A DNA stretch of 64,000 nucleotides from an uncultured Candidatus Rokubacteria bacterium (GTDB lineage Bacteria; Methylomirabilota; Methylomirabilia; Rokubacteriales; CSP1-6). A program made the translations under genes and the position numbers. Shown here piece after piece: positions 21,465 to 45,640 of the stretch. The notes beneath the pieces were generated by a model, which was not told the DNA's origin, made no database searches, and saw nothing but the letters and a program-made list of their open reading frames with translations. Location of the stretch: contig CAVYTA010000007.1 in the NCBI GenBank assembly GCA_963771355.1, positions 672,001 through 736,000 of the forward strand. The letters are read 5' to 3'. Numbering within the stretch: position 1 is the stretch's first letter; the number at the start of each line of letters is the position of its first letter.

Positions 21465-22142
21465 TCAGGCCGGCACGGGCTCGATGAGCGCCGGGCCGTC
21501 GTTGGCGGGCGACGAGACGAGGGGCGAAACCGGGTAGGCCTCCAGTCGATCGGCAGGATACGGGCGCAAGAGAGGCAGGAGATCCCGCGGGTCGACCAGC
21601 TGGCGGTCCAGCCAGCGCGCCTCCACTTCGGGGTCGAGGATCACGGGCATGCGGTCGTGGATGCGCGCGGCCAGCTCGTTGGCCGTGGTGGTCACGATGG
21701 TGCAGGTGGCGGAAACCCCGGCGTCGGGATGCGGCGCGGTATAGAGGCCCGCGAACGCGAAGAGGCCGCCGCCGCGGAGGCGCAGATACCAGGGCCGCTT
21801 GCGCTTCTGACCGGGAACCGCCTGCCACTCGTAGAAGCCGTCCGCCGGCACGAGGCAGCGCGCATGCCTGAGTCCGTCGCTGAACATGGGGCTGGTGGCC
21901 ACCGTCTCGGCGCGGGCATTGATGGGCGCCAGCTTGCCGTCCCGCGCCCAGTGCGGCCGCAGCCCCCACCGCGCCCGCAGGAGCCGGCGCCGCCCTGCCG
22001 TCGCCACGATGACGGGCACGGTGTGGGAGGGTGAGACGTTGTAGCGGGAGATCAGCTCCTCGTTGTCGGCTTCCTCCACCTCGATGCCGAACCGCCGGGC
22101 CAGCTCCTCGAAGGCCGCCGTCTCCGTGTAGCGCCCGCACAT
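21465..22142 (-). CDS. SOS response-associated peptidase (SRAP/YedK/HMCES family)
   Basis: N-terminal MCGRY; INARAET, GFYEW and IHDRMPVIL motifs. Confidence 0.93.
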   Translation of the reverse strand: MCGRYTETAAFEELARRFGIEVEEADNEELISRYNVSPSHTVPVIVATAGRRRLLRARWGLRPHWARDGKLAPINARAETVATSPMFSDGLRHARCLVPADGFYEWQAVPGQKRKRPWYLRLRGGGLFAFAGLYTAPHPDAGVSATCTIVTTTANELAARIHDRMPVILDPEVEARWLDRQLVDPRDLLPLLRPYPADRLEAYPVSPLVSSPANDGPALIEPVPA

Positions 22143-22146
22143 GGCG

Positions 22147-22903
22147 TCAGGACGGGTGGCAGCGAAGGAGGCGCGTCCGCTTGGCGAGGAGGCGGACGGT
22201 GACATAGAAGGTGAGGCCGACGGCGGCGATCACCGTCCACACCGGGTCGAGGTCGAACGCGCCCGTCTCGTGGAGGTCCTCGGCCACGTCGAGTGCGAAG
22301 GGGAGGACGAGGACGAGAGTGAGCCCGTGGTATTCGCGTCGCAGGGCCTCGCGCCAGCGCCAGGGTCGCGCGGCGGGGACGAAGTGGCCAAAGGCTGGCC
22401 AGAGGCGCGGCACGCGCTCGGCCCACTCACTTCCACGTGCGCCCGAAGCGCACACGGAGAAAGACCTCCTCGCGCCAGGCGATGAGCGCGTAGTACCCGA
22501 GGGTGAGCGCCGCGACGGCGGGCGGGAGAAGCCAGGTGTGCGGGAACAGCGCCAGCCCCATGACGATGATGGCGTTGGCGAGGTAGAGCGGGTGGCGGAC
22601 GAGAGAGTAGGGGCCCGTCGTGTTCAGGGTCTCCGCTTTCTGCTTTCGCGTATTGCGTCCGGACGTGCCCGGCGCGGCCACCCCCACCGTCCAGATCCGG
22701 AGCGCCATGCCGATCAGGGAGAGGCCCACGCAGCACGCCTCCCAGGCGAGGTCGGTGGTCTCGGTGCCGAAGGGATAGGTCGCGCGCAGGATGGCCAGGC
22801 CGACGAGGGGCAGGAGGACGAGCGGGAGGTAGCTTCGCCAGCGGAAGAGCGCGTCACCCGCGCTCAGCATCCACCGGGGCTCGCGCGCACGGACCTGAGC
22901 CAT
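22147..22903 (-). CDS. Isoprenylcysteine carboxylmethyltransferase/PEMT-like membrane protein, frameshift near 22440
   Basis: GTSGRNT, TGPYSLVRHPLY and EEVFL motifs; continues WAERVPRLWP..LRREY in a second frame. Confidence 0.75.
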
Positions 22904-27006: not shown

Positions 27007-27085
27007 GACCCCGTCGTCTAGCCTGGCCAAGGACGCGACCCTTTCAAGGTCGAGATCGCGGGTTCGAATCCCGCCGGGGTCACCA
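27007..27085 (+). tRNA. tRNA-Glu(UUC)
   Basis: Acceptor GACCCCG/CGGGGTC, anticodon arm CGACC-CTTTCAA-GGTCG, T arm GCGGG-TTCGAAT-CCCGC, encoded CCA. Confidence 0.97.
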
Positions 27086-27737
27086 CCGCAGTTGGTACGA
27101 CCTTCCCGGGCAGGAGCGGCTCCCAAGAGCCCTGCCCGGTGAAGCGATAGCCACGGCGTCCATCCTTCTCGAAGGCCTCGCACGTTAGGCGTCCCACTAT
27201 CAATTTCCGTAGGATCTGGCGCGTTTGCGGCACATGCCGGCCGAGCAGACCCTTAACGTCAGAGGCGCGCGCAACGAGTTCTCGTTCTAGCTGTTTACCG
27301 TCGAGTAAGGCGACCTTCGCGGCCTGCTGAAGTGCCTCCAACTCGCCGATGAGGGTCTTCTTCCTTGTGTCTTCAGTCTTCAGCCTCGAGAAAAGAGATT
27401 CGTTGCGCTCACCCCTGGCGACGGCATCCACCAGGTTGCCAATGTGTGTTTCGAGAAGAGATAGCTCACGCTCGATGGCGGCTCGTCGATCCTGGAAGCG
27501 GTCCTGACCGCCTCTCAGCCGTTGCAGAGCTTTCTCGACCGCCCGAGCCAAGATCCGTTCGTCCAAGGCATCAGCGATCGCCTGGAGTACCACCTGATCA
27601 AGACCCTCCTGATGGATCAGGAGGGAGTTCTGGCAGATTGTCCGCCCACGCTTGTGGTAACGGTCGCAGCCATAGAGCGCCTTGCGCCCGCGCTTGAAGT
27701 CCCTGGTGATCCCGACCAAGGCTCCCAGCAAGTACAA
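27018..27737 (-). pseudogene. Large serine recombinase C-terminal half (zinc ribbon and coiled coil), 5' truncated, reading through att into antisense tRNA
   Basis: YGCDRYHKRGRTICQN zinc-ribbon part, coiled coil, GYRFTG..VVTPAGFEPA. Confidence 0.8.
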
Positions 27738-27953
27738 GCGCTGACCCGCCGCGAAGCGCTACCGGCACTCGCCGGCCGGTGACACGGAACGTCGGGCCCT
27801 CGACGGCCGGCATCCAAGAATCGACACGTTCTCTGTCGATCGACTGAGCGCGCCGCGTTCTTTTCAGCCATTTAGACGCCGCCGCCGGTGGCACCAAGGT
27901 TGCTCCTCTGACGTGAGGGTTTCCGTGCCTGGACCACGGGCAGGAGAGAGGGG

Positions 27954-28169
27954 ATGACGATGGACGGCGAGATCAAGCGAGAGGCGGCGTTCGCGGGGCA
28001 GCGGGTCAAGCAGAAGGTCGTCTTCGCCCGCGCCCTCTGCTCGGTCATCCCGCTCCTCGTCCTGGCCTACGTGTTTTACGGCAACCTCGTGCTGTGCCGT
28101 CGGCTCCTGGGACGGCCGGTCTGGGATTTCTCATCGGGTGACACGCGTGCCACCGTGGCAGCCGCCTAG
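27954..28169 (+). pseudogene. N-terminal stump paralogous to the GGDEF-EAL protein at 22948-24912
   Basis: IKREAAFAGQRVKQKVVFARALCSVIPLLVLAYVFY vs IQREIAFSGKQVRHKMGLALVLSSLIPLLILAYVFY. Confidence 0.65.
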
Positions 28170-28273
28170 CGCGGCGCGTCGAAGTAAACACGGTGATCTT
28201 TATCGCAATGTGCTGTGGCAAGAACTTGTTGCGCTACCGCGATCGATTCGACAGTAGTAGAGGAGGTCCCGAA

Positions 28274-30331
28274 ATGGCCACGCAGTCCTTGTTGCGGTCT
28301 TCCCGAAGTGCCTTCGCCGCATTGGCAGTGCTTCTCGTCGTTACGGTACTGCCGCTGCACGTCCCGGCTGTTGAAGGGGCGGAGCCCGTCGTTCCTGCTC
28401 AAGGTTCTGCTGATGGCACGCCCTCACCGACTTCAAGAGGTCACGGGCGCGGTGTGATCCGCACGGTAGGAGCGGCTCGCACCGCGAGCCGCCACATCCT
28501 CGTGCAGCTGCATCCGCGCACCGACGAGATGCGGTTCATGCAGGACGCCCACGCCCAAGGCTTGCGCCGGCTGAGCCGTGTGTATGGCACGACGTGGCTC
28601 AGGATGGCTGTCCCGGCGGGAGCCAATCCCGCCCAGGCAGCGGCGGCGGCCCGAACGCTGCCGGGCGTGTTGCGAGCCACGCTGGACTCTGTGGTGACGA
28701 TCAACGACCAGATTCCTCCTCGAGATCCGATCTACAAGAATGACGACGATCCCTCCACGAAGCCATGCGACCCGCTCCTCGAGATCTGTGACCCCTGGAC
28801 GTTGGTCGACCAGTGGGGTCTCTTCAAGGTTGAAGCAGAGACTGGATGGGTCGTCCAACGCGGCGGGCCGGGCGTCGTCATCGCCATCCTCGACAGCGGA
28901 ATCGACCTCGACCATGACGATCTGTGGGCGAAGCTCTGGACGAATCCGGGCGAGGTTCCCGGTAACGGGATCGACGATGATGGCAATGGCCTTGTCGATG
29001 ACGTGCACGGGGCCGATTTCGCCGGCAGCAATGTCGGCGGTCTGTTCGATGACCCTGGCTCCCAGGATGGGAATCCGGATGTTCCGATGGGAGGCGCGTG
29101 GGTCGTGGACCCGACGGCGACGTTCGGGATTCGTTTCGTCGGCGATGCGGCCGCAGGCGACGGGGACGACAACAACCTCGACGGGTTGATTGATATCGGC
29201 GTCACTCACGGAACATTCGTGGCGGGGATTGCCGGTGCCATGACCGACAATGTCAATCCCCAAACGCTTCAGGCCGAAGGCATGGCTGGTGCCTGCTGGC
29301 ACTGTAAGCTGATGCCGGTGCGCATGATCAATGCCGAGGGCTGGGCTTTCGGCTCGGATGCAGCCTCGGCAATCTATTACGCGGCGAACATGGGCGCCCA
29401 TGTCATCAACATCAGCTGGGGCATCGACCTCAGCGGGGCCGATCCGTCCGAGGTGGAGGCGATCCAGGTCATAGCTGACGCCATCGATTTCGCCGCAAGC
29501 CGCGGGGTGATCGTGGTGGCGGCAGCGGGAAACAGCGGCACGGCCGGCCTGCACTTTCCCGCCATCATGAAGAATACGATTGCGGTGGGAAGCTCCAACT
29601 GGCTCGATCGACGTTCTGCCTTCTCCAGTCACGCCGTTCCGGCCGAGATTCCCGATAACGGTCTCGATGATGATGGGAACGGCTGGGTGGATGACGTGCT
29701 CGATGTCGTCGCTCCCGGAGAGCTGATCTGGAGCACTGCCGTCTTGAGCGCGTACGACTCGCTGCTTTACGAACTGCTCGGTCTACCGGGGCTGGAGCCG
29801 GGGACGGACACGTATGGAGCGGCGGATGGCACGTCGTTCTCCACCCCGCTCGTGTCGGGTTACGTGGGGCTCCTCCTCTCACAGAATCCGGGAGCGACGC
29901 TGCGCCAAGTGCGGCAGGCCATCCGCGCGAACGCCCGGGACCTCCTCGACCCGCAGGGCGTTGGGGCTTCGCTGGTGGGATACGATGCCTACTCCGGTTT
30001 CGGGCGGCTCCGCATGGTCGTGACCACGCTGACCCCGGAGCCGAACGCGCCTCCTGTTGCGAATGCCGGCCCCGATCAAGCTGTCTTCGTCAAGGGCAAG
30101 GCGGTGGCCTCAACGGTGACGCTCGATGCTTCGGGCTCGCATGACCCGGATGGCACGCTTGTCTCTTACCAGTGGCTTGAGAACGGCGCTCAGATCGCTA
30201 CGGGGAAAACGGCAGCAGTGAGCCTCGGGATCGGCTCTCACACGATCACGTTGCGAGTGACCGACGACGATCAGGCAAGCAGTGAAGATCAGTTGACCGT
30301 TGATGTCAACAAGCGCGGTGGGAGGAAATAA
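28274..30331 (+). CDS. Secreted subtilisin-like S8 serine peptidase with C-terminal PKD-like domain
   Basis: Signal peptide; triad ILDSG, HGTFVAG, GTSFS; oxyanion AAGN; DDDGNG Ca-binding repeats; LDASGSHDPDG..SYQW. Confidence 0.92.
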   Translation: MATQSLLRSSRSAFAALAVLLVVTVLPLHVPAVEGAEPVVPAQGSADGTPSPTSRGHGRGVIRTVGAARTASRHILVQLHPRTDEMRFMQDAHAQGLRRLSRVYGTTWLRMAVPAGANPAQAAAAARTLPGVLRATLDSVVTINDQIPPRDPIYKNDDDPSTKPCDPLLEICDPWTLVDQWGLFKVEAETGWVVQRGGPGVVIAILDSGIDLDHDDLWAKLWTNPGEVPGNGIDDDGNGLVDDVHGADFAGSNVGGLFDDPGSQDGNPDVPMGGAWVVDPTATFGIRFVGDAAAGDGDDNNLDGLIDIGVTHGTFVAGIAGAMTDNVNPQTLQAEGMAGACWHCKLMPVRMINAEGWAFGSDAASAIYYAANMGAHVINISWGIDLSGADPSEVEAIQVIADAIDFAASRGVIVVAAAGNSGTAGLHFPAIMKNTIAVGSSNWLDRRSAFSSHAVPAEIPDNGLDDDGNGWVDDVLDVVAPGELIWSTAVLSAYDSLLYELLGLPGLEPGTDTYGAADGTSFSTPLVSGYVGLLLSQNPGATLRQVRQAIRANARDLLDPQGVGASLVGYDAYSGFGRLRMVVTTLTPEPNAPPVANAGPDQAVFVKGKAVASTVTLDASGSHDPDGTLVSYQWLENGAQIATGKTAAVSLGIGSHTITLRVTDDDQASSEDQLTVDVNKRGGRK

Positions 30332-30369
30332 GGATCCAAGGCTCGAGGCCTTGACGGCTCACCGATCAC

Positions 30370-30570
30370 GACCGCCTGACGCCGACTTCTGTCCGGAGCG
30401 CGGCGCGAAGCTCGCGGTTGGCTGCGTCGGGTGTGGACCACGACCACGAACGTTGCCCGACACAAGTTCTGCAAGAAGTGCGGCAAACCTTTGGGCAACG
30501 CCGTCGACGCGGGGCGGGCTCCCGGGACGTCGCCATCGCTAGAGGGGTATGTCCCCAAGCAGGAGCAACA
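30370..30570 (+). pseudogene. Double zinc ribbon stump of an adenylate cyclase-type gene
   Basis: DADFCPERG..CVGCG and HKFCKKCGKPL..YVPK, resembling the N-termini of the cyclases at 11144 and 33521. Confidence 0.55.
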
Positions 30571-30876
30571 GACGAATGGATCTCCAATGCAGAAGATCTA
30601 CGAGGTGCTCAGGGAACTTCAGCGGGGCATGTTTTAGTGGCGTGCTGTGTTCGAGGTGGCGGTGCGCAGAAAGCTGCTGAGACATTTGGTGAAAACGTGG
30701 CCGTGACTGAAACACGGATTCCATCCGGATCTCGAAGCTGAACTCGAGGGACCTGTTCGCCTGCAAGTGGTTGCGGGCCCCCGCAACCATGCAAACTGAC
30801 CGACTACTGCCGAGACGCCCGCGTAGCTGGTTTGCTGACGATCACATAGCCCATTGGGGAAGGGACCTCGTGGCGC

Positions 30877-31089
30877 TCAGGCCGCGAGCGCGACGCCTTC
30901 GATGCAAAACGTTAGCGATGCGTTCCAACCCTCGGAATAACCCCCCGGGGTCACCACCTTATTAGCAGCGGGTGTCGCCAAGATGAGCCGCTCGATTCCA
31001 GCCTGCCCCGTGAAACGGTAACACCGGCCGGCGTCATCTTCCTCCGGCATGAGGATGATTCGTCCCTTAACAGGCGCATCACGCAGCAT
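30877..31089 (-). pseudogene. Serine recombinase 3' fragment spanning the second att core
   Basis: GRIILMPE..YRFTGQ..VVTPGGYSEGWNASLTFCIEGVALAA*. Confidence 0.75.
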
Positions 31090-31243
31090 CGCTGGTGCAG
31101 ATCCGTTACGGAGACGAAGCCGCCATCACCGACGTCACTCGAGCGAAGCCGGTGATGCCGACGCCGCAGCAGACCGATCAGGGCGCGCGGCGGCCGCCGG
31201 AGATTCGCCCGCAGGATAGTCGAGCGGCCTGCTGGGTCGCGCG

Positions 31244-33521
31244 TCAGCGCTCGCCGACGACGAAGTGAAGACCGGCCAGCTTGAGGCGGATCGCGTCCCG
31301 CTGGTGCGGGCGGACGGCATCGGCGTGGGCGGTGGCCAGCTCCAGCGCGCTCTGCAAGTGGCTGATCGCCTCCGGGTTGGCGCCCGATGAGCACGGCGCC
31401 GTCGGCGGCGGTCAACAGGTAGGGCAGCGCCGCGATGGCCCGATCGCTCCGAACCCAGTGGTGGGCGAGCTGGTCGCAGACCTCCTCGGTGCGGCCGCGA
31501 TACAGCGACTCGATCGTCTCCGCAGCCCGCCCGTGACGCGTCTTGCGGTCGGCCTGGAGTAGCGTGCCGTAGGCCACCTCCTGGGTCAGGACGTGGTGGA
31601 AGCTCAGCATGGCAATGCCGCCGCCGGCCTCTTGATCGAGGAGCCCGCGGCGCTCGAGCAGCGCCAGGTCCTCGTCGAACTGCTCGCCCGGCGTCAGCGC
31701 GCGCAGGTGCGCCAGCAGGAAGCGCTTGCCGAGCACCGCCGCGTCGGCGATCAGGTCGCGCGCGGAGGGCGACAGGCGGTCGATGCGCGCCGCGATCAGC
31801 GCGTGCAGGGTAGGCGGTACCACGGCGGCAGCGTCCGCGGTCAGATCGTAGGCGCCGTCGGCGAGGACGAGGCCGCCGCGCTCCCGGAATGCCCGGACGA
31901 GCTCCTCGGCATAGAACGGGTTGCCCTGTGCCCGCTCGGCCACGGCCCGGCGCAGTCTCTCGCGCGCCGGGTAAGGATCGAGCTGGGCATCCACCAGCGC
32001 CGCGATGTCGTCGGACGCCAATGACCGGAGCCGAATCTCCCGGACGCCGGCCACCTCGAGGCAACTGCCGGCGAGCGGCAGCCGCGACGTCATGAGCAGG
32101 AGCAGCGGAAGCTCGCGCGCGACCGTGGCCAGCCGACGGCACAGGTCCTCCGACGATGGATCGAGCCAGTGGACGTCCTCGAGCAGCACCAGGCGCGGCG
32201 CCTGACGGCACTCGGCTACCACCCACGCGACCAGCGCCTCCTGCACGCGGTCGCGACGCCCGTCGGCCGGCGTGTCGCGCAGCATGGCGGACGTCTCGCT
32301 TGATGTCCCCAGGATCGGCAGGACATCGGGCACGTAGGCCGCCAGGTCGGGCGACAGATCCCACAGCCGCCGGTGCAGCGCGTCGCGAGCGGCCGCAAGA
32401 TCCCCGTCCGGCGACAGCGCAGCCAGCTGTCGCAGCAAAGGCCGGAAGGCGAAGTAGGCGGCTCTGCGCGCGTACGCTTGCGCGGCGCCCTCGACCGGTG
32501 GCGGCAGGCCGAGGTGGCGTTGCAGCTCGTAGGCGAGCCGGGACTTGCCGATGCCGGGCTCACCGACCAGGCAGATAGCGTCACCACGGCCGCTGGCGGC
32601 GCGTTCCCAGGCCTCGCCGAGCACGGCGAGCTCCGTCTCGCGGCCGCGGAAGGGGGAGACCCCACGCCGGAGCGAGGCTTGCAGGCGCGAGACGACCGTG
32701 CCTTCACCGTCGAGCACGAAGGCCTCGACCGGCTCGGCGGCCCCGCGGACGCGCAGCGCGCCGAGCGGTCGCACGCGGAAGTAGCCCTCGACGAGCCGGT
32801 GGGTCGGCGACGCCAGCAGGATCGAGCCCGGATCGGCGGCCTGTTGCATGCGGGCGGCGAGATTCGTCGTGAGCCCCTGCGCGGTGTAGTCCATGCGCAG
32901 GTCGTCGCCGATGGCACCGACGACGACGGGGCCGCTGTTGAGGCCGAGCCGGACCTGGATGCCGAAGCCCTTGTCACGCCGCAGCCGGGCGGCGTGCTCG
33001 GCGAACCCGCGCTGGATCTCGAGTGCCGCCTGGCACGCGCGCCGCGCGTGGTCCTCGTGAGCGATCGGCGCGCCGAAGAGCGCCATGATCCCGTCGCCTG
33101 TGAACTGGTTGACCGTGCCCTCCCAGCGATGCACGGCGTCGAGCATGATCTGGAAGGCGCCGTCCATGACCATGTGGAAGTCTTCGGCGTCGAGGGCTCC
33201 GGCCAGCTCGGTCGAGCCCTGCACGTCGACGAAGAGGACGGTCACCTCCTTGCGCTCGCCGCGAAGCGCGCGTCCCTCGGTCAGGATCCGCTCGGCCAGG
33301 TGACGCGGTGTGTAGGAGGCGGGCGCGCGGACGACGGCGGGGTCGACGGTAATGGGGGCAGAGGGGCCGACGGACAGCGCCGTGCCGCAGGCGTCGCAGA
33401 AGCGCGCGTGGGGACGCTGGCCCTTGCCGCAGGCCGGGCAGCGGGCCTCGAGGGCGGCGCCGCACCCGTCGCAGAAGTGGGCGCCCTGGCGAAGATCCTG
33501 GGCGCAGGCGGGGCAGTTCAC
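31244..33521 (-). CDS. Double zinc ribbon - class III cyclase - AAA ATPase protein with short TPR tail, frameshift near 31385
   Basis: Four CxxC pairs; VTVLFVDVQGS, TNLAARMQ and GEPGIGKS motifs; continues ANPEAISHL..VGER* in another frame. Confidence 0.82.
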
Positions 33522-33537
33522 GCCGGGGCGGCGACGA

Positions 33538-34089
33538 TCACTCGTCGCGGAGCGCCGTGTTGGCCAGGGTCGTGAAGATCGTGTTGAACACGCAGAACGC
33601 GGCGAAGCCGATCATCTCGCGGACGTCATCGGGCGTGAGGCCCTGGGCCTCCATCTCGCGGAAGTCCTTGGGCTTGACGTCCATCGCGTCCAGCGCGAAG
33701 CGCAGCACGTACCGCACGAAGGCCTGTTCCCGCTCGGGGAGCGGCAGGGCGACCGGGTTGGCACAGATGCCGTCCAGCGCGGCCTCGTCGAAGCCCAGCG
33801 CGATCAGGCCTCGGCGCGAGGAGCCGAAGCAGCCGGTGCACCGCCGGGCGTGGGCCACCAGCATGAACGCGAACATCCGGGCCTCCCAGGAGAACCTCGA
33901 GCGTCCGGAGCGCTGGTTGAACAGATTCGCTTCGGCGGTCACCTGGGCCTCGAGGATCCAGGGCGTTGACACGTACGCGAGCCGGCTCTCGGGTACCGTC
34001 GTGATGCCGCGCAGCCGCTTCAGCTCGTCCAGCCAGTGGCACGCCGCGGGCGGGATGTCCTCTTCCTTGGGAAGGTCGAAGAATGCCAT
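33538..34089 (-). CDS. AhpD/carboxymuconolactone decarboxylase-like protein, paralog 2
   Basis: LVAHARRCTGC motif, ERE..VRYV and CVFN; near-duplicate of its neighbour. Confidence 0.7.
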   Translation of the reverse strand: MAFFDLPKEEDIPPAACHWLDELKRLRGITTVPESRLAYVSTPWILEAQVTAEANLFNQRSGRSRFSWEARMFAFMLVAHARRCTGCFGSSRRGLIALGFDEAALDGICANPVALPLPEREQAFVRYVLRFALDAMDVKPKDFREMEAQGLTPDDVREMIGFAAFCVFNTIFTTLANTALRDE

Positions 34090-34092
34090 CGG

Positions 34093-34641
34093 TCAATCCT
34101 CGCGCAGCGCCGTGTTGGCCACCGTGGTGAAGATCGTGTTCATGAGAGCGTGGGCGGCGCAGCCGGCGATCTCCTGCACATCGGTCGGGGAGAAGCCCTG
34201 GGCCTGGAGCTCGCGGAAGTCCTTGGGCTGGAGCTCGCTGGGATTGGTCGCGATGCGAAGCACGTACTTCACGAACAGGCGCTCGCGCTCCGGCAGAGGG
34301 AGCACGGACGGATTGGCGCAGAAGCCGTCGAGCGCCGGCTCGTCGAAACCCAGCTTGGTCAGGTGTCCGCGCGAGGCGCCGAAACAACCGTCGCACCGCC
34401 GGGCGTGGGCGACGAGCATGAAGGCGATCATCCGGGCCTCCCAGGAGAACGCCGACGGTTCCGATGGCCTGAACAGGCTCGCTTCGACGGTCACGCGGGC
34501 CTTGAGGATCTGCGGAGAGGGCGCGTACGTCACCCAGCTCCGCGGCAAGGTGTCGACACCGCGCAGGCGCTTGAGCTCGTCCAGCCACTGGCGCGCCTCG
34601 GGAGAGATGTCCTCGTCCCTGGGGACGTCGAAGAAAGCCAT
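34093..34641 (-). CDS. AhpD/carboxymuconolactone decarboxylase-like protein, paralog 1
   Basis: MAFFDVP start; LVAHARRCDGC motif. Confidence 0.7.
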   Translation of the reverse strand: MAFFDVPRDEDISPEARQWLDELKRLRGVDTLPRSWVTYAPSPQILKARVTVEASLFRPSEPSAFSWEARMIAFMLVAHARRCDGCFGASRGHLTKLGFDEPALDGFCANPSVLPLPERERLFVKYVLRIATNPSELQPKDFRELQAQGFSPTDVQEIAGCAAHALMNTIFTTVANTALRED

Positions 34642-34808
34642 GGGGCACACTTCCTTCCGGCTGAGTACCTGACGATAGATCACGCCTCCGTGCCACGCAA
34701 GTACCGCGGCCGCACACGAAAGCCGATTGACTGCAATCAGCGGCACGGTTCCCCAGACGACCACCGTGCGCACGCGCCCGGGGACACGGGTTTGTCGAGC
34801 TGCCGGCA

Positions 34809-35009: not shown

Positions 35010-35475
35010 CCGGAAGATGCGCTCGACGATGGGAGCCTGCTCCGGGTCCACCACGCGGGCGACGTGCTCGCGCGTGCCGTCCGGGCCCAGCACCGGTTCG
35101 TTGCGGTACCGAAGATCCGCCCGCCGGTGACGTGCCGCGCCCGCGCTTTCCTCAGCATCGCGTCCCGGGTCCGCTGCCGTGCCTTCTCGCGCTCGAGTTC
35201 GTCGGCGAAGCCGGCCACGGACATCAGCAGCTTCTCGGTGGGGGAATCGATCGTGCGCTCGCGGTCCTCAGAGGTAGAGGAACACGCGCACGCCGCCCTG
35301 GGTGAACTGTTTCAGGGCATAGGCGGTCTCGATCTGCTCGCGCCCCAGGCGGGACTCCTCCGACATAGATGAGCACCTGGAACGACGGCCGCGGCTTGAG
35401 CGCATTCATGAGTCGGAGGAATCCGGGGCGCGTCGTGAACTCCGCCCCGCTGATCCCGTCTTCGGCGCAGACGTG
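35010..35475 (-). pseudogene. Large serine recombinase N-terminal (resolvase and start of recombinase domain) remnant, multiply frameshifted
   Basis: Across frames: DGISGAEFTTRPGFLRLMNALKPRP, EESRLGREQIETAYALKQ, ELEREKARQRTRDAM, EQAPIVERIF. Confidence 0.8.
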
Positions 35476-35585
35476 GGCGGGGTCCTTGCGCGACGCCTGC
35501 GTTACCTTTCAGTTGGCTATATGCTGGCGTGTCGCGGTACACTCCGGTCGCCGTTCCCAACTGCCCACACAGAGGAGAGCGCCTA

Positions 35586-36560: not shown

Positions 36561-36726
36561 CTATGCAACCGCGACTCCGGCCAGCGTGAAGGCGAGGAAT
36601 TCCTCAGCCGGTACAGCGGCACCGCCCGGGGTCACCACATACGTTGGAACCATCGTTCCCCGGTGAAGCGATAACTCCGCTGCCCGTCCTTCGCGAAGGC
36701 CTCGCACGCTAGGCGTCCCACTATCA
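36561..36726 (-). pseudogene. Serine recombinase 3' fragment spanning the third att core
   Basis: Nucleotide match to 27136-27202 (CCCGGTGAAGCGATA; GAAGGCCTCGCACGnTAGGCGTCCCACTATCA); VVTPGGAAVPAEEFLAFTLAGVAVA*. Confidence 0.8.
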
Positions 36727-36892
36727 CGTCGTCGGACCAAGGTCCTATTGCCGGCCCGTGAGGGACGCGCGTTAATTTCACAGGTCGAGCGCGCAGCCCG
36801 AGACCTCAGGGAGGACGACATCATGGGAGTTTTCATGATCGACCCGATGTTGAGCAATTCACATAACACTCACGTTGGTTGAGGAGGCCGTT

Positions 36893-37297: not shown

Positions 37298-37474
37298 CTG
37301 AAGGTGGTGGAGGCGTCACAACCTCCACCACTCGCAGCGCTGCTGTGTGGGAAGGTGCCACGCGACGGCAAAGCTCGGTAGACACTTAGGCGATACGGAC
37401 GACGCCCCTGATGGTCTGAGGTCGCGGGGTGAAGGGGACAAAACGCCCCGGGGTCACCACGCCTTTCCCGTGAC

Positions 37475-37578
37475 GATAGGCAACATAAACGCCCTCCGGA
37501 GGGAGGATAGGCAACATGAACGCCCTCCGGCGGCGGGCGCCCCTGGCTTGGGTCCCGTCACCGTGCTTGGGTCCCGTC
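37475..37578. repeat. Two pairs of short direct repeats
   Basis: GATAGGCAACATRAACGCCCTCCGG at 37475 and 37506; GCTTGGGTCCCGTC at 37546 and 37565. Confidence 0.85.
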
Positions 37579-37733
37579 CCCGGGACATAACCTGCCAGAC
37601 CCGGACGCTGGCCGCCCCAGGAGCCGACGGCACAGCGACGATCTCCTCCGGCCCCACGCGCAGCACGAGGTGCTGGAGGCCGGTGCCGTCCCAGCTCTCC
37701 CAGCGCGCGACGGTGGGGCCGCCCGCGACGCGC

Positions 37734-39918: not shown

Positions 39919-40896
39919 CTACTCGATCACCTGATCCGCCCGCGCCAGCACCGACGGCGGGATCGTCAGGCCGAGCGCCTTCGCGGTCTTGAGGTTGATC
40001 ACCAGCTCGAACTTGGTCGGCTGTTCTACGGGCAGGTCGGCGGGCTTTGCGCCCCTGAGAATGCGGTCGATGTACCCGGCGGCACGCCGCAGCATATCGA
40101 CGAGGCTCGCGCCGTACGCCATTAGGCCACCCGCCGTCACGAAGTCCGCGCTCTCGTAAATCGCGGGGAGACCGATCTCCGAGGCGAGCTGCGCGATGCG
40201 CCGGCGCTCCAGCCAAAACATCGGATGGGGATGGACAAGCAGCGCCTCCGGCCGCGCGGCGCGCGCTGCCGCGAGGGCAGCGCCGATCTCGCCCGGCTGC
40301 CGAGCGATGAAGAGCTGGATCCCCAGGCCGAGCCGGGCAGCTTCGCGCTCGATCTCCCGATGCTTTTGGGTTGCGAGGGCGGCAACTCTCCGGAGCCTCG
40401 GCACGGTGTCCTTGAGCAACTGAAGCCGCTTGCCCGTCAACTCGCCGGTTAGATGACTGAAGCCTGTGATGTTCCCGCCAGGCCGCGCCAGGCTCGCAAC
40501 CAGGCCGGCCTCCTCGGGATCGGCGACCGCGACGAACACCACCGACACCGTAGTGGTCACCTTCTTGAGAGCCTCGGCGAGCTCGTTCGAGGCGACTATG
40601 GCGACATCGACGTTCTGCCCGACCAGGTCCCTCGCCGCATGCAGCATCTCCTCGCCCCCGCTCACGGCGCAGCGCGGTACAACGACGTAGTTCTGCTCCT
40701 GGACGTACCCGAGCTCGCGGAGCCCGCCCCGCAGCGCGAGCACCGCGGGAGTAGGGGAATCGATGCCGCAGCCGGGCGGCAGGCCGGGGACGAGGAGTCC
40801 GATCCGCCAGACCTTCCCCGCCGGCTGCGCCTCGGCGGCGCGCGGCGCGGCGAGGAGACTACCTGGGATCATTGCCAGGAAGGTGCGGCGCTCCAT
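39919..40896 (-). CDS. Orphan ABC substrate-binding protein
   Basis: MERRTFL, SLARPGGNITG and ADQVIE* motifs. Confidence 0.9.
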   Translation of the reverse strand: MERRTFLAMIPGSLLAAPRAAEAQPAGKVWRIGLLVPGLPPGCGIDSPTPAVLALRGGLRELGYVQEQNYVVVPRCAVSGGEEMLHAARDLVGQNVDVAIVASNELAEALKKVTTTVSVVFVAVADPEEAGLVASLARPGGNITGFSHLTGELTGKRLQLLKDTVPRLRRVAALATQKHREIEREAARLGLGIQLFIARQPGEIGAALAAARAARPEALLVHPHPMFWLERRRIAQLASEIGLPAIYESADFVTAGGLMAYGASLVDMLRRAAGYIDRILRGAKPADLPVEQPTKFELVINLKTAKALGLTIPPSVLARADQVIE

Positions 40897-41037
40897 CACG
40901 GGTGCTCCCTCAGCTTCTCCAGTGCCGTCTCGAGCAGCCCCCGGATCTCCGCGTCGCGCTCCCGCCGGGCCGCGGTCTTCCGCTGGCGACTTCGGGCCGC
41001 CCGACACCGGCCGCTGCAGACCTCCTGGCCGCCATGC
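40896..41037 (-). repeat. Copy C of zinc-finger micro-ORF (5' truncated)
   Basis: HGGQEVCSGRCRAARSRQRKTAARRERDAEIRGLLETALEKLREHP*; TGATG overlap with the SBP start. Confidence 0.8.
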
Positions 41038-41192
41038 TAGCGCGCCCGCTGCGCCACGGCTAGCGCACCGGCGAGCGCCGAGGGGCCGGAGTCGCGCCTG
41101 CCTTTTGGTGGCGGCTCTGCCAGAACTCTACGATTAGCGGTCTGGCGCTCGCCGATCCAGCGGGGTTTTGGGGTAGACTCGGGGGAATACGC

Positions 41193-42455
41193 ATGATTGC
41201 AGTGTTCCTCGGCGGCGTCCTCCTCAGCGTCGTGATCCTTTTCGCCTTGGTCGTGTGGTCGATTCGCCGTCACCGCGACCCCGACCTGCACATCGAATGC
41301 GACTCACGCATCGATCAACTGATCCCCACGCTCGCGGGCTTGACGCTGGGGACGGCGGTCGCCGGCAACACGGCGGAGGTGCTCGAGAACGGCGCCTTCT
41401 TCGATGTGCTGATCGGCCGTATCCAGGCGGCGCGAGAATCCGTGCACTTCGAGACCTTCCTGTGGAAGGAGGGGACCCTGGGCCGTCGTGTCGCCGATGC
41501 TCTGATCGACCGAGCGCGGGCCCGAGTGAAGGTGCGGGTCCTGCTGGACGCCGAAGGCTCCAAGGGCGCCGGGACGAGTGTCGTGCAGCAGATGCGTGAC
41601 GCGGGCTGTCGCGTGGTGTTCTTCCACGACCGGAAGATTCGAAACATCGGCGTGTTCAACGACCGCGACCACCGGAAGCTGGTGGTCATCGACGGGCGCG
41701 AGGCCTTCGTGGGCGGCCACTGCATCGTGGACGAGTGGCTCGGCAATGCGGAAGACGGCAAGCACTATGCGGACATCAGCCTCCACTTGCACGGGCCCAT
41801 CGTGCACACCGTGCAAAGCGCCTTCAGCGAGAACTGGGCCGGCGAGACGGGCGAGCTCTTCGTGGGGGACGACGTCTTCCCGGCGTTGGCGCCGGCGGGC
41901 GACATCCTCATGCATGCCGTGTTCGCCAAGCCAGAGAACTCGGCGCCCGCGGTCAAGATCCTGCACCACACCGCGATCTGCCTGGCGCGCAGCCGCATCT
42001 GGATCCAGAATCCCTATTTCATCCCGGAGCCCGACGCCATCGATGCCTTCGGCGAGGCGGTGGCCCGCGGGGTGGACGTGCGAGTCCTGATGCCTTCGAC
42101 CAGCGGCTCGGACAACCCCATGGTCCAGCACGCCGGCCACCGGAACTTCGAAAAGCTGCTGCGTTGCGGCGTTCGCCTGTTCGAGTACCCGCACACCCTG
42201 CTGCACCAGAAGGTGATGACCGTCGACGGCGTCTGGAGCGCCATCGGCTCGAGCAACTTCGACGACCGCTCGTTCGAGACGAACGACGAACTCACCCTCT
42301 CAATCCGGGACGAGGCGCTAGGGCGGCGGTTCGACGCGATCTTCGAAAAGTATGTCGCGCGGGCGTCCGAGATCGAGCTCGAGCGGTGGCGCAAGCGGGC
42401 GCTGTCGCACAGGCTCACGGACCACTTCTTCTATGCGCTGAACGAACTTCTTTGA
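41193..42455 (+). CDS. Cardiolipin synthase-like phospholipase D
   Basis: Two HKD motifs (HRKLVVID, HQKVMTVD); NPYFIP and GSSNFD. Confidence 0.9.
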   Translation: MIAVFLGGVLLSVVILFALVVWSIRRHRDPDLHIECDSRIDQLIPTLAGLTLGTAVAGNTAEVLENGAFFDVLIGRIQAARESVHFETFLWKEGTLGRRVADALIDRARARVKVRVLLDAEGSKGAGTSVVQQMRDAGCRVVFFHDRKIRNIGVFNDRDHRKLVVIDGREAFVGGHCIVDEWLGNAEDGKHYADISLHLHGPIVHTVQSAFSENWAGETGELFVGDDVFPALAPAGDILMHAVFAKPENSAPAVKILHHTAICLARSRIWIQNPYFIPEPDAIDAFGEAVARGVDVRVLMPSTSGSDNPMVQHAGHRNFEKLLRCGVRLFEYPHTLLHQKVMTVDGVWSAIGSSNFDDRSFETNDELTLSIRDEALGRRFDAIFEKYVARASEIELERWRKRALSHRLTDHFFYALNELL

Positions 42456-42526
42456 CCGACACGAACATGCCGTCGCGATTGGCCGCGGTAGATAGTCACC
42501 GATCACCAGGAACGCGCGGCGGTCCA

Positions 42527-43498
42527 TCACTCGATCACCCGATCCGCTCGTAGCAAGAGCGACGGCGGGATCGTCAGGCCGAGCGCCTTGGCGGTCTTGA
42601 GGTTGATGACCAGCTCGAACTTCGTCGTCTGTTCCACGGGCAGGTCGCCCGGCTTCGCCCCCTTTAGAATTCTGTCGACATAGTAGGCGGCCCGCCGGAA
42701 CATGTCAGGAAAGCTCGGCCCATAGGCCATGAGACAACCATCGACTACAAAGGTGCGCTCTTGGCACACTGCCGGGAGCCGACCTTTCGCCATCAGCCTC
42801 AGGATCGTCGTCCGGTGAGCGGCAAAGAGCGGTGACGCCAGTTGGATGACCGCTTGGGCACGCTGCTGCCTGGCGGCTTCAAATGCTCGCTCCAGGTCCT
42901 GCTCCCCTCGCACCTCGAGGACTTGCAGGATGAGCCCCAACGATGGGGCTACCCGCTCGACAGCCTTGACTGCGTTTGGCCTGACCGAATCCCACAGCAC
43001 AGCCACGCGGCTGACCTCCGGAATAGCCTCCCTCAACAGTTGCAGTCGTTTGGTTACTAGCTCGGAGTCTTGAAAGGAAAGTCCGGTGAGGTTTCCGCCC
43101 GGACGCGCGAGGCTGGTGACGAAGCCCTGTTCAACCGGGTCCTCAACGATGGCCATGACAATGGGAATCACGCTGGTGGCGCGCTGAGCCGCACGGATCG
43201 CATGCGGACCCGAGGTCACAATGACGTCAGCCTTAAGCCCGACTAACTCAGCCGCAAGGCCGGGAAACCGCTCTGGCTTGCCCTCGCCCCATCGATACTC
43301 AATAGCGATGTTTTGGCCCTGCACGTACCCGCGTTCACGCAATCCTTCGCGAAATGCCGTGAGCCAGGAGGACATGAGGGAGGAGGTGGCGGTCCCGAGG
43401 AGACCTATAAGGGGAACCTTCCCCGCCGGCTGCGCCTCGGCGGCGAGCGGCGCAACAAGCAGCGCGGCAGCACCAGCCAGGAGCGCGCGGCGCTCCAT
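42527..43498 (-). CDS. Orphan ABC substrate-binding protein (array member 3)
   Basis: MERRALL, SLARPGGNLTG and ADRVIE* motifs. Confidence 0.9.
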   Translation of the reverse strand: MERRALLAGAAALLVAPLAAEAQPAGKVPLIGLLGTATSSLMSSWLTAFREGLRERGYVQGQNIAIEYRWGEGKPERFPGLAAELVGLKADVIVTSGPHAIRAAQRATSVIPIVMAIVEDPVEQGFVTSLARPGGNLTGLSFQDSELVTKRLQLLREAIPEVSRVAVLWDSVRPNAVKAVERVAPSLGLILQVLEVRGEQDLERAFEAARQQRAQAVIQLASPLFAAHRTTILRLMAKGRLPAVCQERTFVVDGCLMAYGPSFPDMFRRAAYYVDRILKGAKPGDLPVEQTTKFELVINLKTAKALGLTIPPSLLLRADRVIE

Positions 43499-44472
43499 CA
43501 CTCGATCACCTGATCCGCCCGGTGCAGGAGCGACTGCGGGATCTTGAGGCTGAGGACTTTGGCGGTCTTGAGGTTGATGACCAGCTCGAACTTGGTGGGC
43601 TGCTCGATGGGAAGGTCGGCGGGTGGCGCGCCCTTGAAGATTCTGTCCACGAAGCTCGCGGCGCGACGATAGTGGTCAGGATAGTTCACTCCGTAGACGA
43701 TCAACCCCCCGGCGAACTCCATGGATGCGTATATCGCCGGCAGGCGATGCTTTGCCGCAAGGTCAACGATGACCCGCTGATTCGCCTGCGTGAGGGAGTC
43801 AAGCCCCACCACGAGCACATCTGCACGCTGCCTGATCGCGCTGTCGAACGCCGGCCCCAAATCTTCAGGCTTTCGCACATCGAGAAGCTGAGGGTGGATC
43901 CGCAGGGATCGCGCCGACGTCTCGACCTCTCTCCACGACGGTGGGATGGACGGGTTGCTCATGTTGAAGAGGGCGGCGAGTCGTACGGCTCGCGGAACGA
44001 GTTCCTTGAGCAGGTCGACCCGTTTCGCGTATATGTCCGTTACCTGGGCGCTTAGCCCGGTGATATTCCCGCCCGGGCGCGCGAGGCTCGCGACGACGCC
44101 CTGCCCTACCGGATCGCCAATCCCCGCCATGACCACGGGAATCGTCGCCGTGGCATTCTTGGCCGCCAGGGCCGCTGGCGTCCCCCTCGTCACGATTAGG
44201 TCCACCTTCAACCGAACCAACTCCGCCGCCAGGCTCGGGTATCGCTCGTCGCGGCCGTCGGTCGATCGGTACTCGATGACGAAGCTTTTCCCCTCAACGT
44301 ATCCAAGGTCCCGCAGTCCCTGTCGGAAGCTATCGACGTTGGCGGCATTTATCGCCGTTGATGTCCTCTCGAGCATGCCGATGCGATAGAGCTTCTCTGG
44401 ATGCTGCGCCTCGGCGGTGCGCGGCGCGGCAATCAGCGCGGCAGCACCAGCCAGGAACGCGCGCCGGTCCAT
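43498..44472 (-). CDS. Orphan ABC substrate-binding protein (array member 2)
   Basis: MDRRAFL, SLARPGGNITG and ADQVIE* motifs. Confidence 0.9.
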   Translation of the reverse strand: MDRRAFLAGAAALIAAPRTAEAQHPEKLYRIGMLERTSTAINAANVDSFRQGLRDLGYVEGKSFVIEYRSTDGRDERYPSLAAELVRLKVDLIVTRGTPAALAAKNATATIPVVMAGIGDPVGQGVVASLARPGGNITGLSAQVTDIYAKRVDLLKELVPRAVRLAALFNMSNPSIPPSWREVETSARSLRIHPQLLDVRKPEDLGPAFDSAIRQRADVLVVGLDSLTQANQRVIVDLAAKHRLPAIYASMEFAGGLIVYGVNYPDHYRRAASFVDRIFKGAPPADLPIEQPTKFELVINLKTAKVLSLKIPQSLLHRADQVIE

Positions 44473-45455
44473 CACTCGATCACCTGATCCGCCCGCGTCA
44501 GCACTGACGGCGGGATCGTCAGGCCGAGGGCGTGAGCGGTGGCGTTGTTGACGACCAACTCGAAACGCGTGGGTTCTTCCACAGGAAGCTGGCTCGGCCG
44601 CGTGCCCTGCAGGAGCTTGCCCGCGTAGAGCGCGGCACGTTCGTACAGGTCCGGAACGTATGGCCCGTACGAGAGGAGGCCGCCCCCCCGGGCGAAGAAC
44701 CAATCCGCCGCCGCGGTGACGACCCGATGCCGCAAGGCAAACAGCGCGATGTCTGGCCTGACCGGCCCGATCAACTGCTCGAAGAGGAGTAGGCCGTCTG
44801 GACGCTCCTGGCCCATCGAGCCGAATGTCTTCTCAAGGTCCCGAGAGGACGTGATCCGAAGAGCAGAGAGCTGCACGCCGAGGGTTCGGGCGGCTCGTTC
44901 AAGACCCACGAACCGCTCCTGATGTAGCTCGATCGTCGGGCTCCAGAGCACGGCCACCCGTGCGAGCCGCGGATTGATCTCCTTGAGAAGCTCGAGGTGT
45001 TTGGCGGCGAGCTGCCCGAGGGGGACGCTCAAGCCTGTCACGTTTGCGCCCGGTCGACCGAGGCTGGCTACCAGTCCCTCGGCCACGGCGTCGGCGACGT
45101 TGACCATGACAATCGGCGTGCTCTTCGTGGCCTGGCGTGCGGCCTGCGTCGCCTCATTGCCAAACGCGACGATAACATCGACTTTTCGCTGAACGAGCTT
45201 TTTCGCCGCGTCCGAGAGGCGGCCGTAGCCAACACCGGCGCCGCTCATGTCTAGCGAGGCGTTCCGGCCGAAGACGTACCCGGCCCGCTCGAAACCTGCC
45301 AGAAACGCGCGGTCCCAGTCCATGACAGCATTTGGGAGGGTCGAGCAGTTGCCCGGGCACAGAAAGGCCACCTTCCCCGTCGGCTGCGCTTCGGCGGCAA
45401 GCGGAGCGGCGAGGAGAGTAGCTGAGGCCATCGCGAGAAAGGTGCGCCGCTCCAT
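44472..45455 (-). CDS. Orphan ABC substrate-binding protein (array member 1)
   Basis: MERRTFL, SLGRPGANVTG and ADQVIE* motifs. Confidence 0.9.
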   Translation of the reverse strand: MERRTFLAMASATLLAAPLAAEAQPTGKVAFLCPGNCSTLPNAVMDWDRAFLAGFERAGYVFGRNASLDMSGAGVGYGRLSDAAKKLVQRKVDVIVAFGNEATQAARQATKSTPIVMVNVADAVAEGLVASLGRPGANVTGLSVPLGQLAAKHLELLKEINPRLARVAVLWSPTIELHQERFVGLERAARTLGVQLSALRITSSRDLEKTFGSMGQERPDGLLLFEQLIGPVRPDIALFALRHRVVTAAADWFFARGGGLLSYGPYVPDLYERAALYAGKLLQGTRPSQLPVEEPTRFELVVNNATAHALGLTIPPSVLTRADQVIE

Positions 45456-45640
45456 CACGGGTCCTCCGTCAGCTTCTTGAGTGCCGCCTCGAGCAGCGCC
45501 CGGATCTCCGCATCCCGCTCCCGCCGGGTCTCGGCCTTCCGCTGCCGGCTCCGGGCCGCCCGACACCGGCCGCTGCAGACCTCCTGGCCGGCGTGGATCG
45601 GCACCTTCTGGCAGACGGGGCATAGCCGGGAGGCTAGCAT
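45455..45640 (-). CDS. Copy B (intact) of C4 zinc-finger/coiled-coil micro-protein, 61 aa
   Basis: MLASRLCPVCQKVPIHAGQEVCSGRCRAARSRQRKAETRRERDAEIRALLEAALKKLTEDP*; TGATG overlap with the SBP. Confidence 0.8.
   Translation of the reverse strand: MLASRLCPVCQKVPIHAGQEVCSGRCRAARSRQRKAETRRERDAEIRALLEAALKKLTEDP

What the first reader, a model, noticed from the sequence alone, without database searches (positions are those of the whole stretch)
27074..30957. Rebuilt attP of unit 1 is a symmetric 50-bp site centred on the crossover CC
Seen: joining the two ends of unit 1 gives CGTTCCAAC (30921-30929), 15 nt, the 13-nt core, 4 nt, then GTTGGTACG (27091-27099). The outer 9-mers are an inverted repeat (8/9 match). 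The centre of the 32-nt spacer falls on the first CC of the core, exactly where identity to the tRNA begins. The same right-hand motif, GTTGGAAC, recurs 4 nt after the third core (36643-36650). Known: large serine integrase attP sites are about 50 bp, with outer zinc-domain motifs and a central crossover dinucleotide. The equivalent symmetry was not found for units 2 and 3, which may be older chimeras.
Basis: partly seen in the sequence, partly recalled or inferred. Interest (0 to 1): 0.7.

Follow-up and report, generated by a model that had tools for sequence, protein, structure and literature searches.

The report
Serine integrase site swaps enzyme's tail
The symmetric 50-base site is most likely the attachment site of a now-broken mobile element that inserts at a tRNA gene; it lies inside the end of the element's own integrase gene, so insertion would swap an alanine-ending tail, likely a destruction tag, for letters read off the back of the tRNA.

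Summary
Alone it is only marginally beyond chance. Homologues settle it. In 27 rebuilt attP sites from tRNA-targeting large serine recombinase (LSR) islands, dyad symmetry peaks only at nt 65/66 (z 8.8). It sits at the published zinc-domain position and co-varies element by element. Rebuilt circle forms end in Ala in 21 of 26 (Ala-Ala 15), against 5 of 97 tRNA-joined forms (Ala-Ala 0) and 4 of 51 off-frame readings. The tail is under protein-level selection. Unit 1's tail ends ALAA, like the host tmRNA tag. Best reading: integration removes a likely protease tag from the integrase (about 0.55). Rival: the tail is a beta-strand that completes or blocks the zinc domain; one of two AlphaFold models supports this. 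The window holds only relics. The gene-across-att layout is published (DsiB, rumA ICEs, Mx8); a degron on a serine integrase was not found in 10 paper searches. This scan reported the same tail swap at least eight times on other DNA.

The parts
27007..27085 (+). tRNA-Glu(TTC), the target gene; its 3' end is restored at attL
   Evidence: ARAGORN
27074..27075 (+). inferred crossover dinucleotide CC (tRNA nt 65-66, T-stem/acceptor-stem junction) at attL
   Evidence: symmetry axis and identity boundary
27074..27086 (+). 13-nt core 1 (attL of unit 1)
27091..27099 (+). P' zinc-domain motif GTTGGTACG of unit 1 (half-site positions 16-24)
27018..27737 (-). C-terminal remnant of unit-1 LSR (zinc ribbon, coiled coil); reads through attL into the tRNA antisense and stops inside it
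   Evidence: PF13408 E 4e-5, just under the curated cut-off; 51% to an intact LSR
28193..30331 (+). unit-1 cargo: subtilase S8 with PKD domain
30877..30944 (-). P-arm-coded integrase tail and stop of unit 1; the frame from the core reads VVTPGGYSEGWNASLTFCIEGVALAA*
30921..30929 (+). P zinc-domain motif CGTTCCAAC of unit 1
30945..30957 (+). 13-nt core 2 (junction P of unit 1 / P' of unit 2)
30958..31089 (-). C-terminal LSR remnant of unit 2, in frame with the unit-1 tail; its ZD motif TTAGCAGCG is at 30962-30970
35013..35484 (-). frameshifted N-terminal LSR remnant (catalytic region) in unit 2
   Evidence: tblastn
36561..36625 (-). P-arm-coded tail and stop left of core 3, ending LAGVAVA*
36626..36638 (+). 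13-nt core 3
36643..36651 (+). P' zinc-domain motif GTTGGAACC of unit 3, same type as unit 1
   Evidence: 8 of 9 against the unit-1 P arm
36635..36793 (-). degraded C-terminal LSR remnant of unit 3
   Evidence: 87% DNA identity over 68 nt to the unit-1 arm
37386..37447 (-). P-arm-coded tail and stop left of core 4, ending GVVRIA*
37448..37460 (+). 13-nt core 4 (outermost exact core)

Best explanation
The 50-bp site is most likely the attP of a degraded island whose large serine integrase would cut at tRNA-Glu nt 65-66, and because the integrase reading frame runs through the site, the excised circle would make an enzyme ending in an Ala-Ala tail that is likely a protease tag, while the copy joined to the tRNA ends in antisense-tRNA residues. 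Shown: the symmetry, its position, the read-through, the tail endings and selection on the tail. Inferred: zinc domains bind the two 9-mers and strands are exchanged at CC (about 0.9); the tail is translated from the circle and from inner array junctions (about 0.9); the tail is a ClpXP-type C-terminal degron (about 0.55). Under that model the circle makes short-lived integrase, which limits (re)integration. Only the tRNA-proximal copy of a stack makes a stable enzyme able to excise. In this genome the switch is dead, since only integrase fragments remain.
For: Symmetry peak at 65/66 only, z 8.8 in 27 pairs; z 7.6 (lowest 5.4) with one pair from each of 19 sequence clusters. ZD match of at least 6/9 in 15 of 27 cognate pairs against 63 of 702 non-cognate pairs. 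Central dinucleotide palindromic in 0 of 27. Rebuilt tails end in Ala in 21 of 26 (AA 15, VA 4, TA 2), against 4 of 51 off-frame readings, 5 of 97 attL forms (AA 0) and 14% / 2% of 4811 long frames of the host. Natural non-tRNA ends finish in Ala in 29 of 60, AA in 17. Ala endings occur in all three frames across the core: 13/16, 7/9, 1/1. All four Ala codons and all three stops are used; differences by codon position are 44/34/110 and synonymous 68 versus non-synonymous 37 in 19 related pairs. The host has ClpX and a tmRNA tag ANNQLALAA. Precedent for integration removing an ssrA-like tag: BPs repressor (PMC9262239, passages).
Against: No degradation or recombination was tested. AlphaFold packs the tail of L153 as a strand to the penultimate residue (block pLDDT 92), which could hide a degron. 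Residues 5-12 from the end are also conserved and alternate hydrophobic, more than a bare C-terminal tag needs. Five of 26 rebuilt tails do not end in Ala; 6 of 27 pairs have ZD match of 3/9 or less. The ZD motif expected 5 bp inward on the tRNA arm of attB was not found (1.5 of 9). The pairs are kin and not fully independent, and the 51 tails were chosen for ending in Ala.
Confidence: 0.55

Rival explanations
1. Same attP, but the tail is structural. It adds a beta-strand to the zinc domain, so the circle form is either the fully active integrase or is blocked at the directionality-factor (RDF) site and can only integrate; the tail-less form is excision-competent. The Ala end would reflect packing, or a second role.
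For: AlphaFold model of natural tail-bearing L153: disordered linker over the att-coded part (residues 230-242), strand at 250-258. Most solved-LSR alignments end at model residue 218-225, three reach 249-252. Most RDFs are predicted to add a strand to this sheet, and SCCmec LSRs have extra C-terminal strands that could block it (PMC12286644, passages). Mx8 integrase loses activity when its tail is swapped (cited in PMC4701971). McMurdie suggested DsiB may be fully functional only in the circle.
Against: The second model (L075, RKAA-type tail) gives the tail pLDDT 51-64. Tails differ widely in sequence and length (15-26 residues in 25 of 27) yet share the terminal Ala followed by the stop. Where the strand docks could not be read from the model output.
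Confidence: 0.3
2. The tail is only a convenient way to reach a stop codon in the circle, and the Ala ends come from DNA-level constraints or GC bias. There is no switch; the attP is an ordinary LSR site.
For: Gene-across-att layouts are known with no shown function (DsiB). Hosts are GC-rich and 14% of long frames end in Ala.
Against: AA in 15 of 26 against 2% background; off-frame controls 1 of 51; third-position bias; distance from the crossover varies.
Confidence: 0.1
3. The repeats were made by a tyrosine integrase or by chance, and the symmetry is incidental.
For: tRNA targeting is typical of tyrosine integrases and rare for serine ones (PMC3218068). The single-site symmetry is only about p 0.05 after allowing for the search. 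Two of 16 related elements also carry a tyrosine-recombinase gene.
Against: LSR remnants abut cores 1-3. 98 related LSR ends run into tRNA 3' ends. Symmetry sits at the LSR ZD position and co-varies.
Confidence: 0.05

Closest known systems
DsiB serine integrase of Dehalococcoides ssrA genomic islands (McMurdie 2011, PMC3146451; passages read)
   Same: About 540-residue LSR on the reverse strand beside attL; gene always overlaps attL at its 3' end, with the stop beyond the island; tandem arrays; authors suggest it may be fully functional only in the circle or behind another island.
   Different: Targets tmRNA, not tRNAs; comes with DsiA and a six-gene module; in the passages read the C-terminus is called divergent and no conserved Ala-ended tail, degron or symmetry-mapped crossover is described.
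LI/A118-type LSR attP architecture (Rutherford 2013, PMC3783163; passages)
   Same: 50-bp attP, 9-bp ZD motifs at positions 16-24, central dinucleotide.
   Different: There attB carries the ZD motif 5 bp further in; that was not seen on the tRNA arm here. Here attP lies inside the integrase gene and the target is a tRNA.
Integration-dependent immunity of mycobacteriophage BPs (review PMC9262239; passages)
   Same: [quoted passage not shown]
   Different: There the split gene is the repressor and the tyrosine integrase keeps its tag; here the tag would be removed from the serine integrase itself.
rumA-targeting streptococcal ICE serine integrases and Myxococcus phage Mx8 Int (PMC4701971; passages)
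   Same: att site inside the integrase gene; integration changes its C-terminus.
   Different: rumA is a protein gene; Mx8 is a tyrosine integrase that loses 112 residues; no degron described in the passages read.
tRNA-targeting serine recombinases of Mycobacterium AICEs and phage RSM1 (PMC3218068; passages)
   Same: Serine recombinase integrating at a tRNA gene, called rare.
   Different: No read-through tail described in the passages read; relationship to this family not tested.

Membership tests
Large serine recombinase attP | cognate enzyme with Resolvase + Recombinase + Zn-ribbon domains | tested here: met
   3 of 3 intact relatives; the window holds only fragments, 51% identical to one of them
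Large serine recombinase attP | about 50 bp with dyad symmetry about a central dinucleotide | tested here: met
   (z 8.8 at nt 65/66 only)
Large serine recombinase attP | 9-bp ZD motifs at half-site positions 16-24 | tested here: met
   window 8/9; at least 6/9 in 15 of 27 against 63 of 702 non-cognate pairs; position from PMC3783163
Large serine recombinase attP | asymmetric central dinucleotide shared with attB | tested here: met
   0 of 27 palindromic; identity never starts 3' of nt 65 in the 27 nearest pairs
Large serine recombinase attP | partner attB carries ZD motifs shifted 5 bp inward | tested here: inconclusive
   tRNA-side arm shows no match at shift 5 (1.5 of 9; best 3.7 at shift 10, no control run); the true B' arm is unknown in arrays
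Large serine recombinase attP | recombines with attB | not testable with these tools
   needs an assay
DsiB / ssrA genomic islands | integrase gene overlaps attL at its 3' end | tested here: met
DsiB / ssrA genomic islands | integration at ssrA | tested here: not met
   the 98 attL ends were sorted by a tRNA T-arm; 56 are full tRNA-Glu, others Ala, Ser, Arg, Lys or partial; the window target is tRNA-Glu
DsiB / ssrA genomic islands | six-gene module with DsiA | tested here: not met
   no Resolvase, ParBc or Mom family among 121 of 191 ORFs from 16 elements
DsiB / ssrA genomic islands | sequence clade shared with DsiB | not tested
   no DsiB sequence was fetched
BPs integration-dependent immunity | attP inside a repressor gene, tyrosine integrase | tested here: not met
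   attP is inside a serine integrase gene
BPs integration-dependent immunity | ssrA-like end present in the free form and lost on integration | tested here: met
   sequence level only:
ssrA-like (ClpXP) C-terminal degron | terminal Ala-Ala or similar with free C-terminus (recalled from general knowledge; LAA-type tags) | tested here: met
   15 AA + 4 VA + 2 TA of 26
ssrA-like (ClpXP) C-terminal degron | accessible, unstructured terminus | tested here: inconclusive
   ordered strand in one model, low confidence in the other
ssrA-like (ClpXP) C-terminal degron | protease-dependent turnover | not testable with these tools
   ClpX is present in the host; no assay

The most novel reading that the evidence does not exclude
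A widespread family of tRNA-targeting serine integrases edits its own C-terminus as a one-gene switch. The attP-coded tail is both a ClpXP tag and a strand that occupies the directionality-factor site, so the circle's enzyme is short-lived and integration-only. The tRNA-joined enzyme is stable and excision-competent, and every inner element of a tandem stack is silenced by its neighbour's tail.
Probability: 0.3. Interest if true: 0.8.

Novelty: new variant of a known kind. Interest (0 to 1): 0.5.

Why it matters
The site anatomy itself is textbook LSR. What matters is the family. First, it maps the crossover of a large group of serine integrases to tRNA nt 65-66 across several tRNAs (Glu, Ser, Ala, Lys, Arg), giving ready attP/attB pairs for conserved, non-disruptive landing sites; serine integration at tRNAs is described as rare. 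Second, it turns the open remark on DsiB (unclear stop codon, possible regulation) into a testable claim: a selected, Ala-ended tail present only off the tRNA. Third, it warns that the integrase annotated in a genome and the one made by the circle are different proteins, which would affect any screen that clones these enzymes.

Tried and rejected
(1) attB ZD motif 5 bp inward: not found on the tRNA arm. (2) Self-symmetry of units 2 and 3: 1 of 9 each, no rescue by a 1-nt shift. (3) Intact family integrase in the host to act in trans: 3 hits, all fragments, in a 99.8% complete assembly. (4) True B' arm: 4 same-genus tRNA-Glu(TTC) loci gave none matching the DNA right of core 4 (one ends at its contig edge); that DNA continues into an island-associated repeat, so the array may extend further. 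(5) Free phage or plasmid copies: best 31% in phages, 33% in plasmids among listed rows, no close relative; none of 7 viral contigs checked had terminal repeats. (6) Fold search could not place the tail strand. (8) No read-level test of excision was obtained, so whether circles form is open; 14 soil or rhizosphere runs in 6 studies hold at least half of the stretch's words, one of which may be the source. (9) Papers not held: Magrini 1999, Broussard 2013, Mageeney 2020; they are cited only through others, and the TIGER paper or its supplements may already list these islands. (10) Passages of the tycheposon, Integrase-On-Demand, ProBord and TIGER2 papers showed nothing on such tails. (11) Decoy cores were too few (6) to serve as a control; off-frame readings were used instead. 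(12) Two nearest matches were dropped before the count of 27 as artefacts (a 54-bp local duplication in G167, an 11-nt match in G164a) and the next match used.
Full report
1. Observation. Four exact 13-nt cores (27074, 30945, 36626, 37448) delimit three units behind tRNA-Glu(TTC) at 27007-27085. The 9-mers at 30921-30929 and 27091-27099 match 8 of 9 as an inverted repeat. The axis lies between the two C's that open the core, which are tRNA nt 65-66 (standard numbering, my count), and the rebuilt span is 50 bp. The same right-hand motif follows core 3. For one site this is weak: about 0.05 after allowing for the search space.

2. The enzyme. The minus-strand frame 27737-27018 is the zinc-ribbon and coiled-coil end of a large serine recombinase. 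It runs through the core and stops inside the tRNA antisense. Shorter C-terminal remnants abut cores 2 and 3, and a frameshifted catalytic remnant lies at 35013-35484. A profile search of the host genome found three fragments and no intact member. Intact relatives of 558-579 aa carry Resolvase, Recombinase and Zn-ribbon domains (3 of 3). Scans returned the best 80 of 251 genome loci, 14 viral loci and the best 80 of 399 metagenome loci. Record titles are mostly Rokubacteria/Methylomirabilota, Nitrospirota and Acidobacteriota; the host is probably of the first group (inference from same-order relatives).

3. Testing the attP claim. Of the de-duplicated integrase ends, 98 run into a tRNA 3' end: Glu(TTC) 41, Glu(CTC) 15, Ala 9, Ser(GCT) 7, Arg 4, partial 17, others 5. 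Only 27 had a downstream partner core within the DNA held (43 matches in all; two nearest matches dropped as artefacts). Identity to the tRNA starts at nt 65 in 11 of 27, further 5' in 16, never 3' of 65, with dinucleotides TT, CC, GT, TG, TC and GG, none palindromic. Symmetry at distance 13-25 peaks only at 65/66: 6.96 of 13 against 4.04 +/- 0.33 for shuffled partners. With one pair from each of 19 clusters, z is 7.6. The outer motif lies at half-site positions 16-24, the ZD motif of the LI integrase structure (PMC3783163, passages). The motif sequence differs between elements while the two arms co-vary. Against: 6 of 27 pairs match 3/9 or less, a few look shifted by one base, and the attB-type 5-bp inward shift was not seen on the tRNA arm. 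Units 2 and 3 of the window are non-cognate; the arm that fits unit 2 9 of 9 is in G140, so these units are probably deletion chimeras.

4. Left of each downstream core the integrase frame continues for 19-21 codons to a stop, ending GVALAA, GVAVA and VVRIA. Family-wide, rebuilt circle forms end in Ala in 21 of 26 that reached a stop within the DNA read (AA 15, VA 4, TA 2). Controls: 4 of 51 off-frame readings, 5 of 97 tRNA-joined forms (no AA), 14% and 2% of 4811 long host frames. Natural ends away from a tRNA finish in Ala in 29 of 60; that set includes broken and mis-sorted ends. The pattern holds in all three frames across the core. Among 51 Ala-ended tails, 19 related pairs differ 44/34/110 times at codon positions 1/2/3, with 68 synonymous and 37 non-synonymous single changes; the pairs are not independent. 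So the tail is selected as protein.

5. Mechanism. Degron reading (best, about 0.55): the terminal AA/VA directly before the stop, over variable upstream sequence, is what C-terminal protease recognition predicts (general knowledge). The host has ClpX and its tmRNA tag ends ALAA like the unit-1 tail. The circle and inner array members would make unstable integrase; the tRNA-joined copy would be stable. Structural reading (about 0.3): AlphaFold on the natural tail-bearing L153 gives a disordered linker over the att-coded part and a confident last strand; the L075 tail is low-confidence. Published models say most RDFs add a strand to this sheet and that C-terminal strands may block the RDF site (PMC12286644, passages); the extreme C-terminus of SPbeta integrase matters for excision (bioRxiv 2025.01.03.631226, passages). 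The two readings are not exclusive. A no-function reading (0.1) and a tyrosine-integrase or chance reading (0.05) fit poorly.

6. What is known. McMurdie 2011 already reports that dsiB overlaps attL at its 3' end in tandem islands and may work only in the circle (PMC3146451, passages). Ambroset 2016 reports att inside rumA-targeting serine integrases and recalls Mx8 (PMC4701971, passages). BPs removes an ssrA-like tag from its repressor by integration (PMC9262239, passages). Serine integration at tRNAs is called rare (PMC3218068, passages). Ten full-text searches (listings seen) returned no paper on a degron-like tail removed from a serine integrase by its own integration. Three key papers were not held, and supplements were not seen. 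My tail idea was noted, before the look-up. Earlier notes of this scan describe the same swap in other genomes and led me to the DsiB paper, which lowered my novelty rating; I checked the paper and my own loci, not their DNA.

7. Verdict. The feature is real. It works like, and on the tested features is, an LSR attP. It works like DsiB and BPs in layout but belongs to neither. New variant of a known kind; interest 0.5. The window holds relics; the value lies in the mapped crossover and the testable tail switch of the family.

Noticed in passing
window 37502-37637: A roughly 135-bp dispersed repeat starts just after core 4, with its first 30 nt or so doubled. It has 19 other blastn hits in the genome, many clustered on C7 765-797 kb, and several copies in the G140 island. 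A 27-nt piece recurs inverted at 28091-28117, about 350 nt upstream of the broken unit-1 integrase. Possibly a MITE or cassette-boundary element.
   Followed up: partly
L031-L034 (G140:C9 826-906 kb): A same-genus genome has a stack of about ten core-like sites at the same tRNA-Glu, sharing the unit-1 and unit-2 arm types and the adenylate-cyclase/ATPase cargo.
   Followed up: yes
L224, L276, L280, L253, L101, L111, L152, L163, L231: Related 4-15 kb elements look satellite-like: head or packaging genes in 7 of 16, AAA_25 helicase-type genes in 5 of 16, SIR2 in 3, AbiV in 1; no tail families hit.
   Followed up: partly
window 27061-27068 (T-loop, minus strand): The antisense T-loop resembles the unit-1 ZD motif; family-wide the best ZD match on the tRNA arm is at a 10-11 bp shift (3.7 and 3.3 of 9), not 5. 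No control run.
   Followed up: partly
98 attL ends: The integrase crosses the tRNA in all three frames (46, 47, 5), interleaved on the tree, so the frame across the core appears to have changed more than once while the Ala end was kept.
   Followed up: partly
window 30951-34644: Unit-2 cargo: double-zinc-ribbon adenylate/guanylate cyclase-AAA ATPase and two tandem peroxidase-related genes.
   Followed up: no
window 21465-22205: SRAP (SOS-associated peptidase) gene just downstream of tRNA-Lys(TTT) in a lower-GC stretch.
   Followed up: no
window 39919-45623: Four tandem paralogous genes of about 320-400 aa, 64-80% alike in DNA; they look like ABC-transporter substrate-binding proteins (recalled, not scanned).
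   Followed up: no
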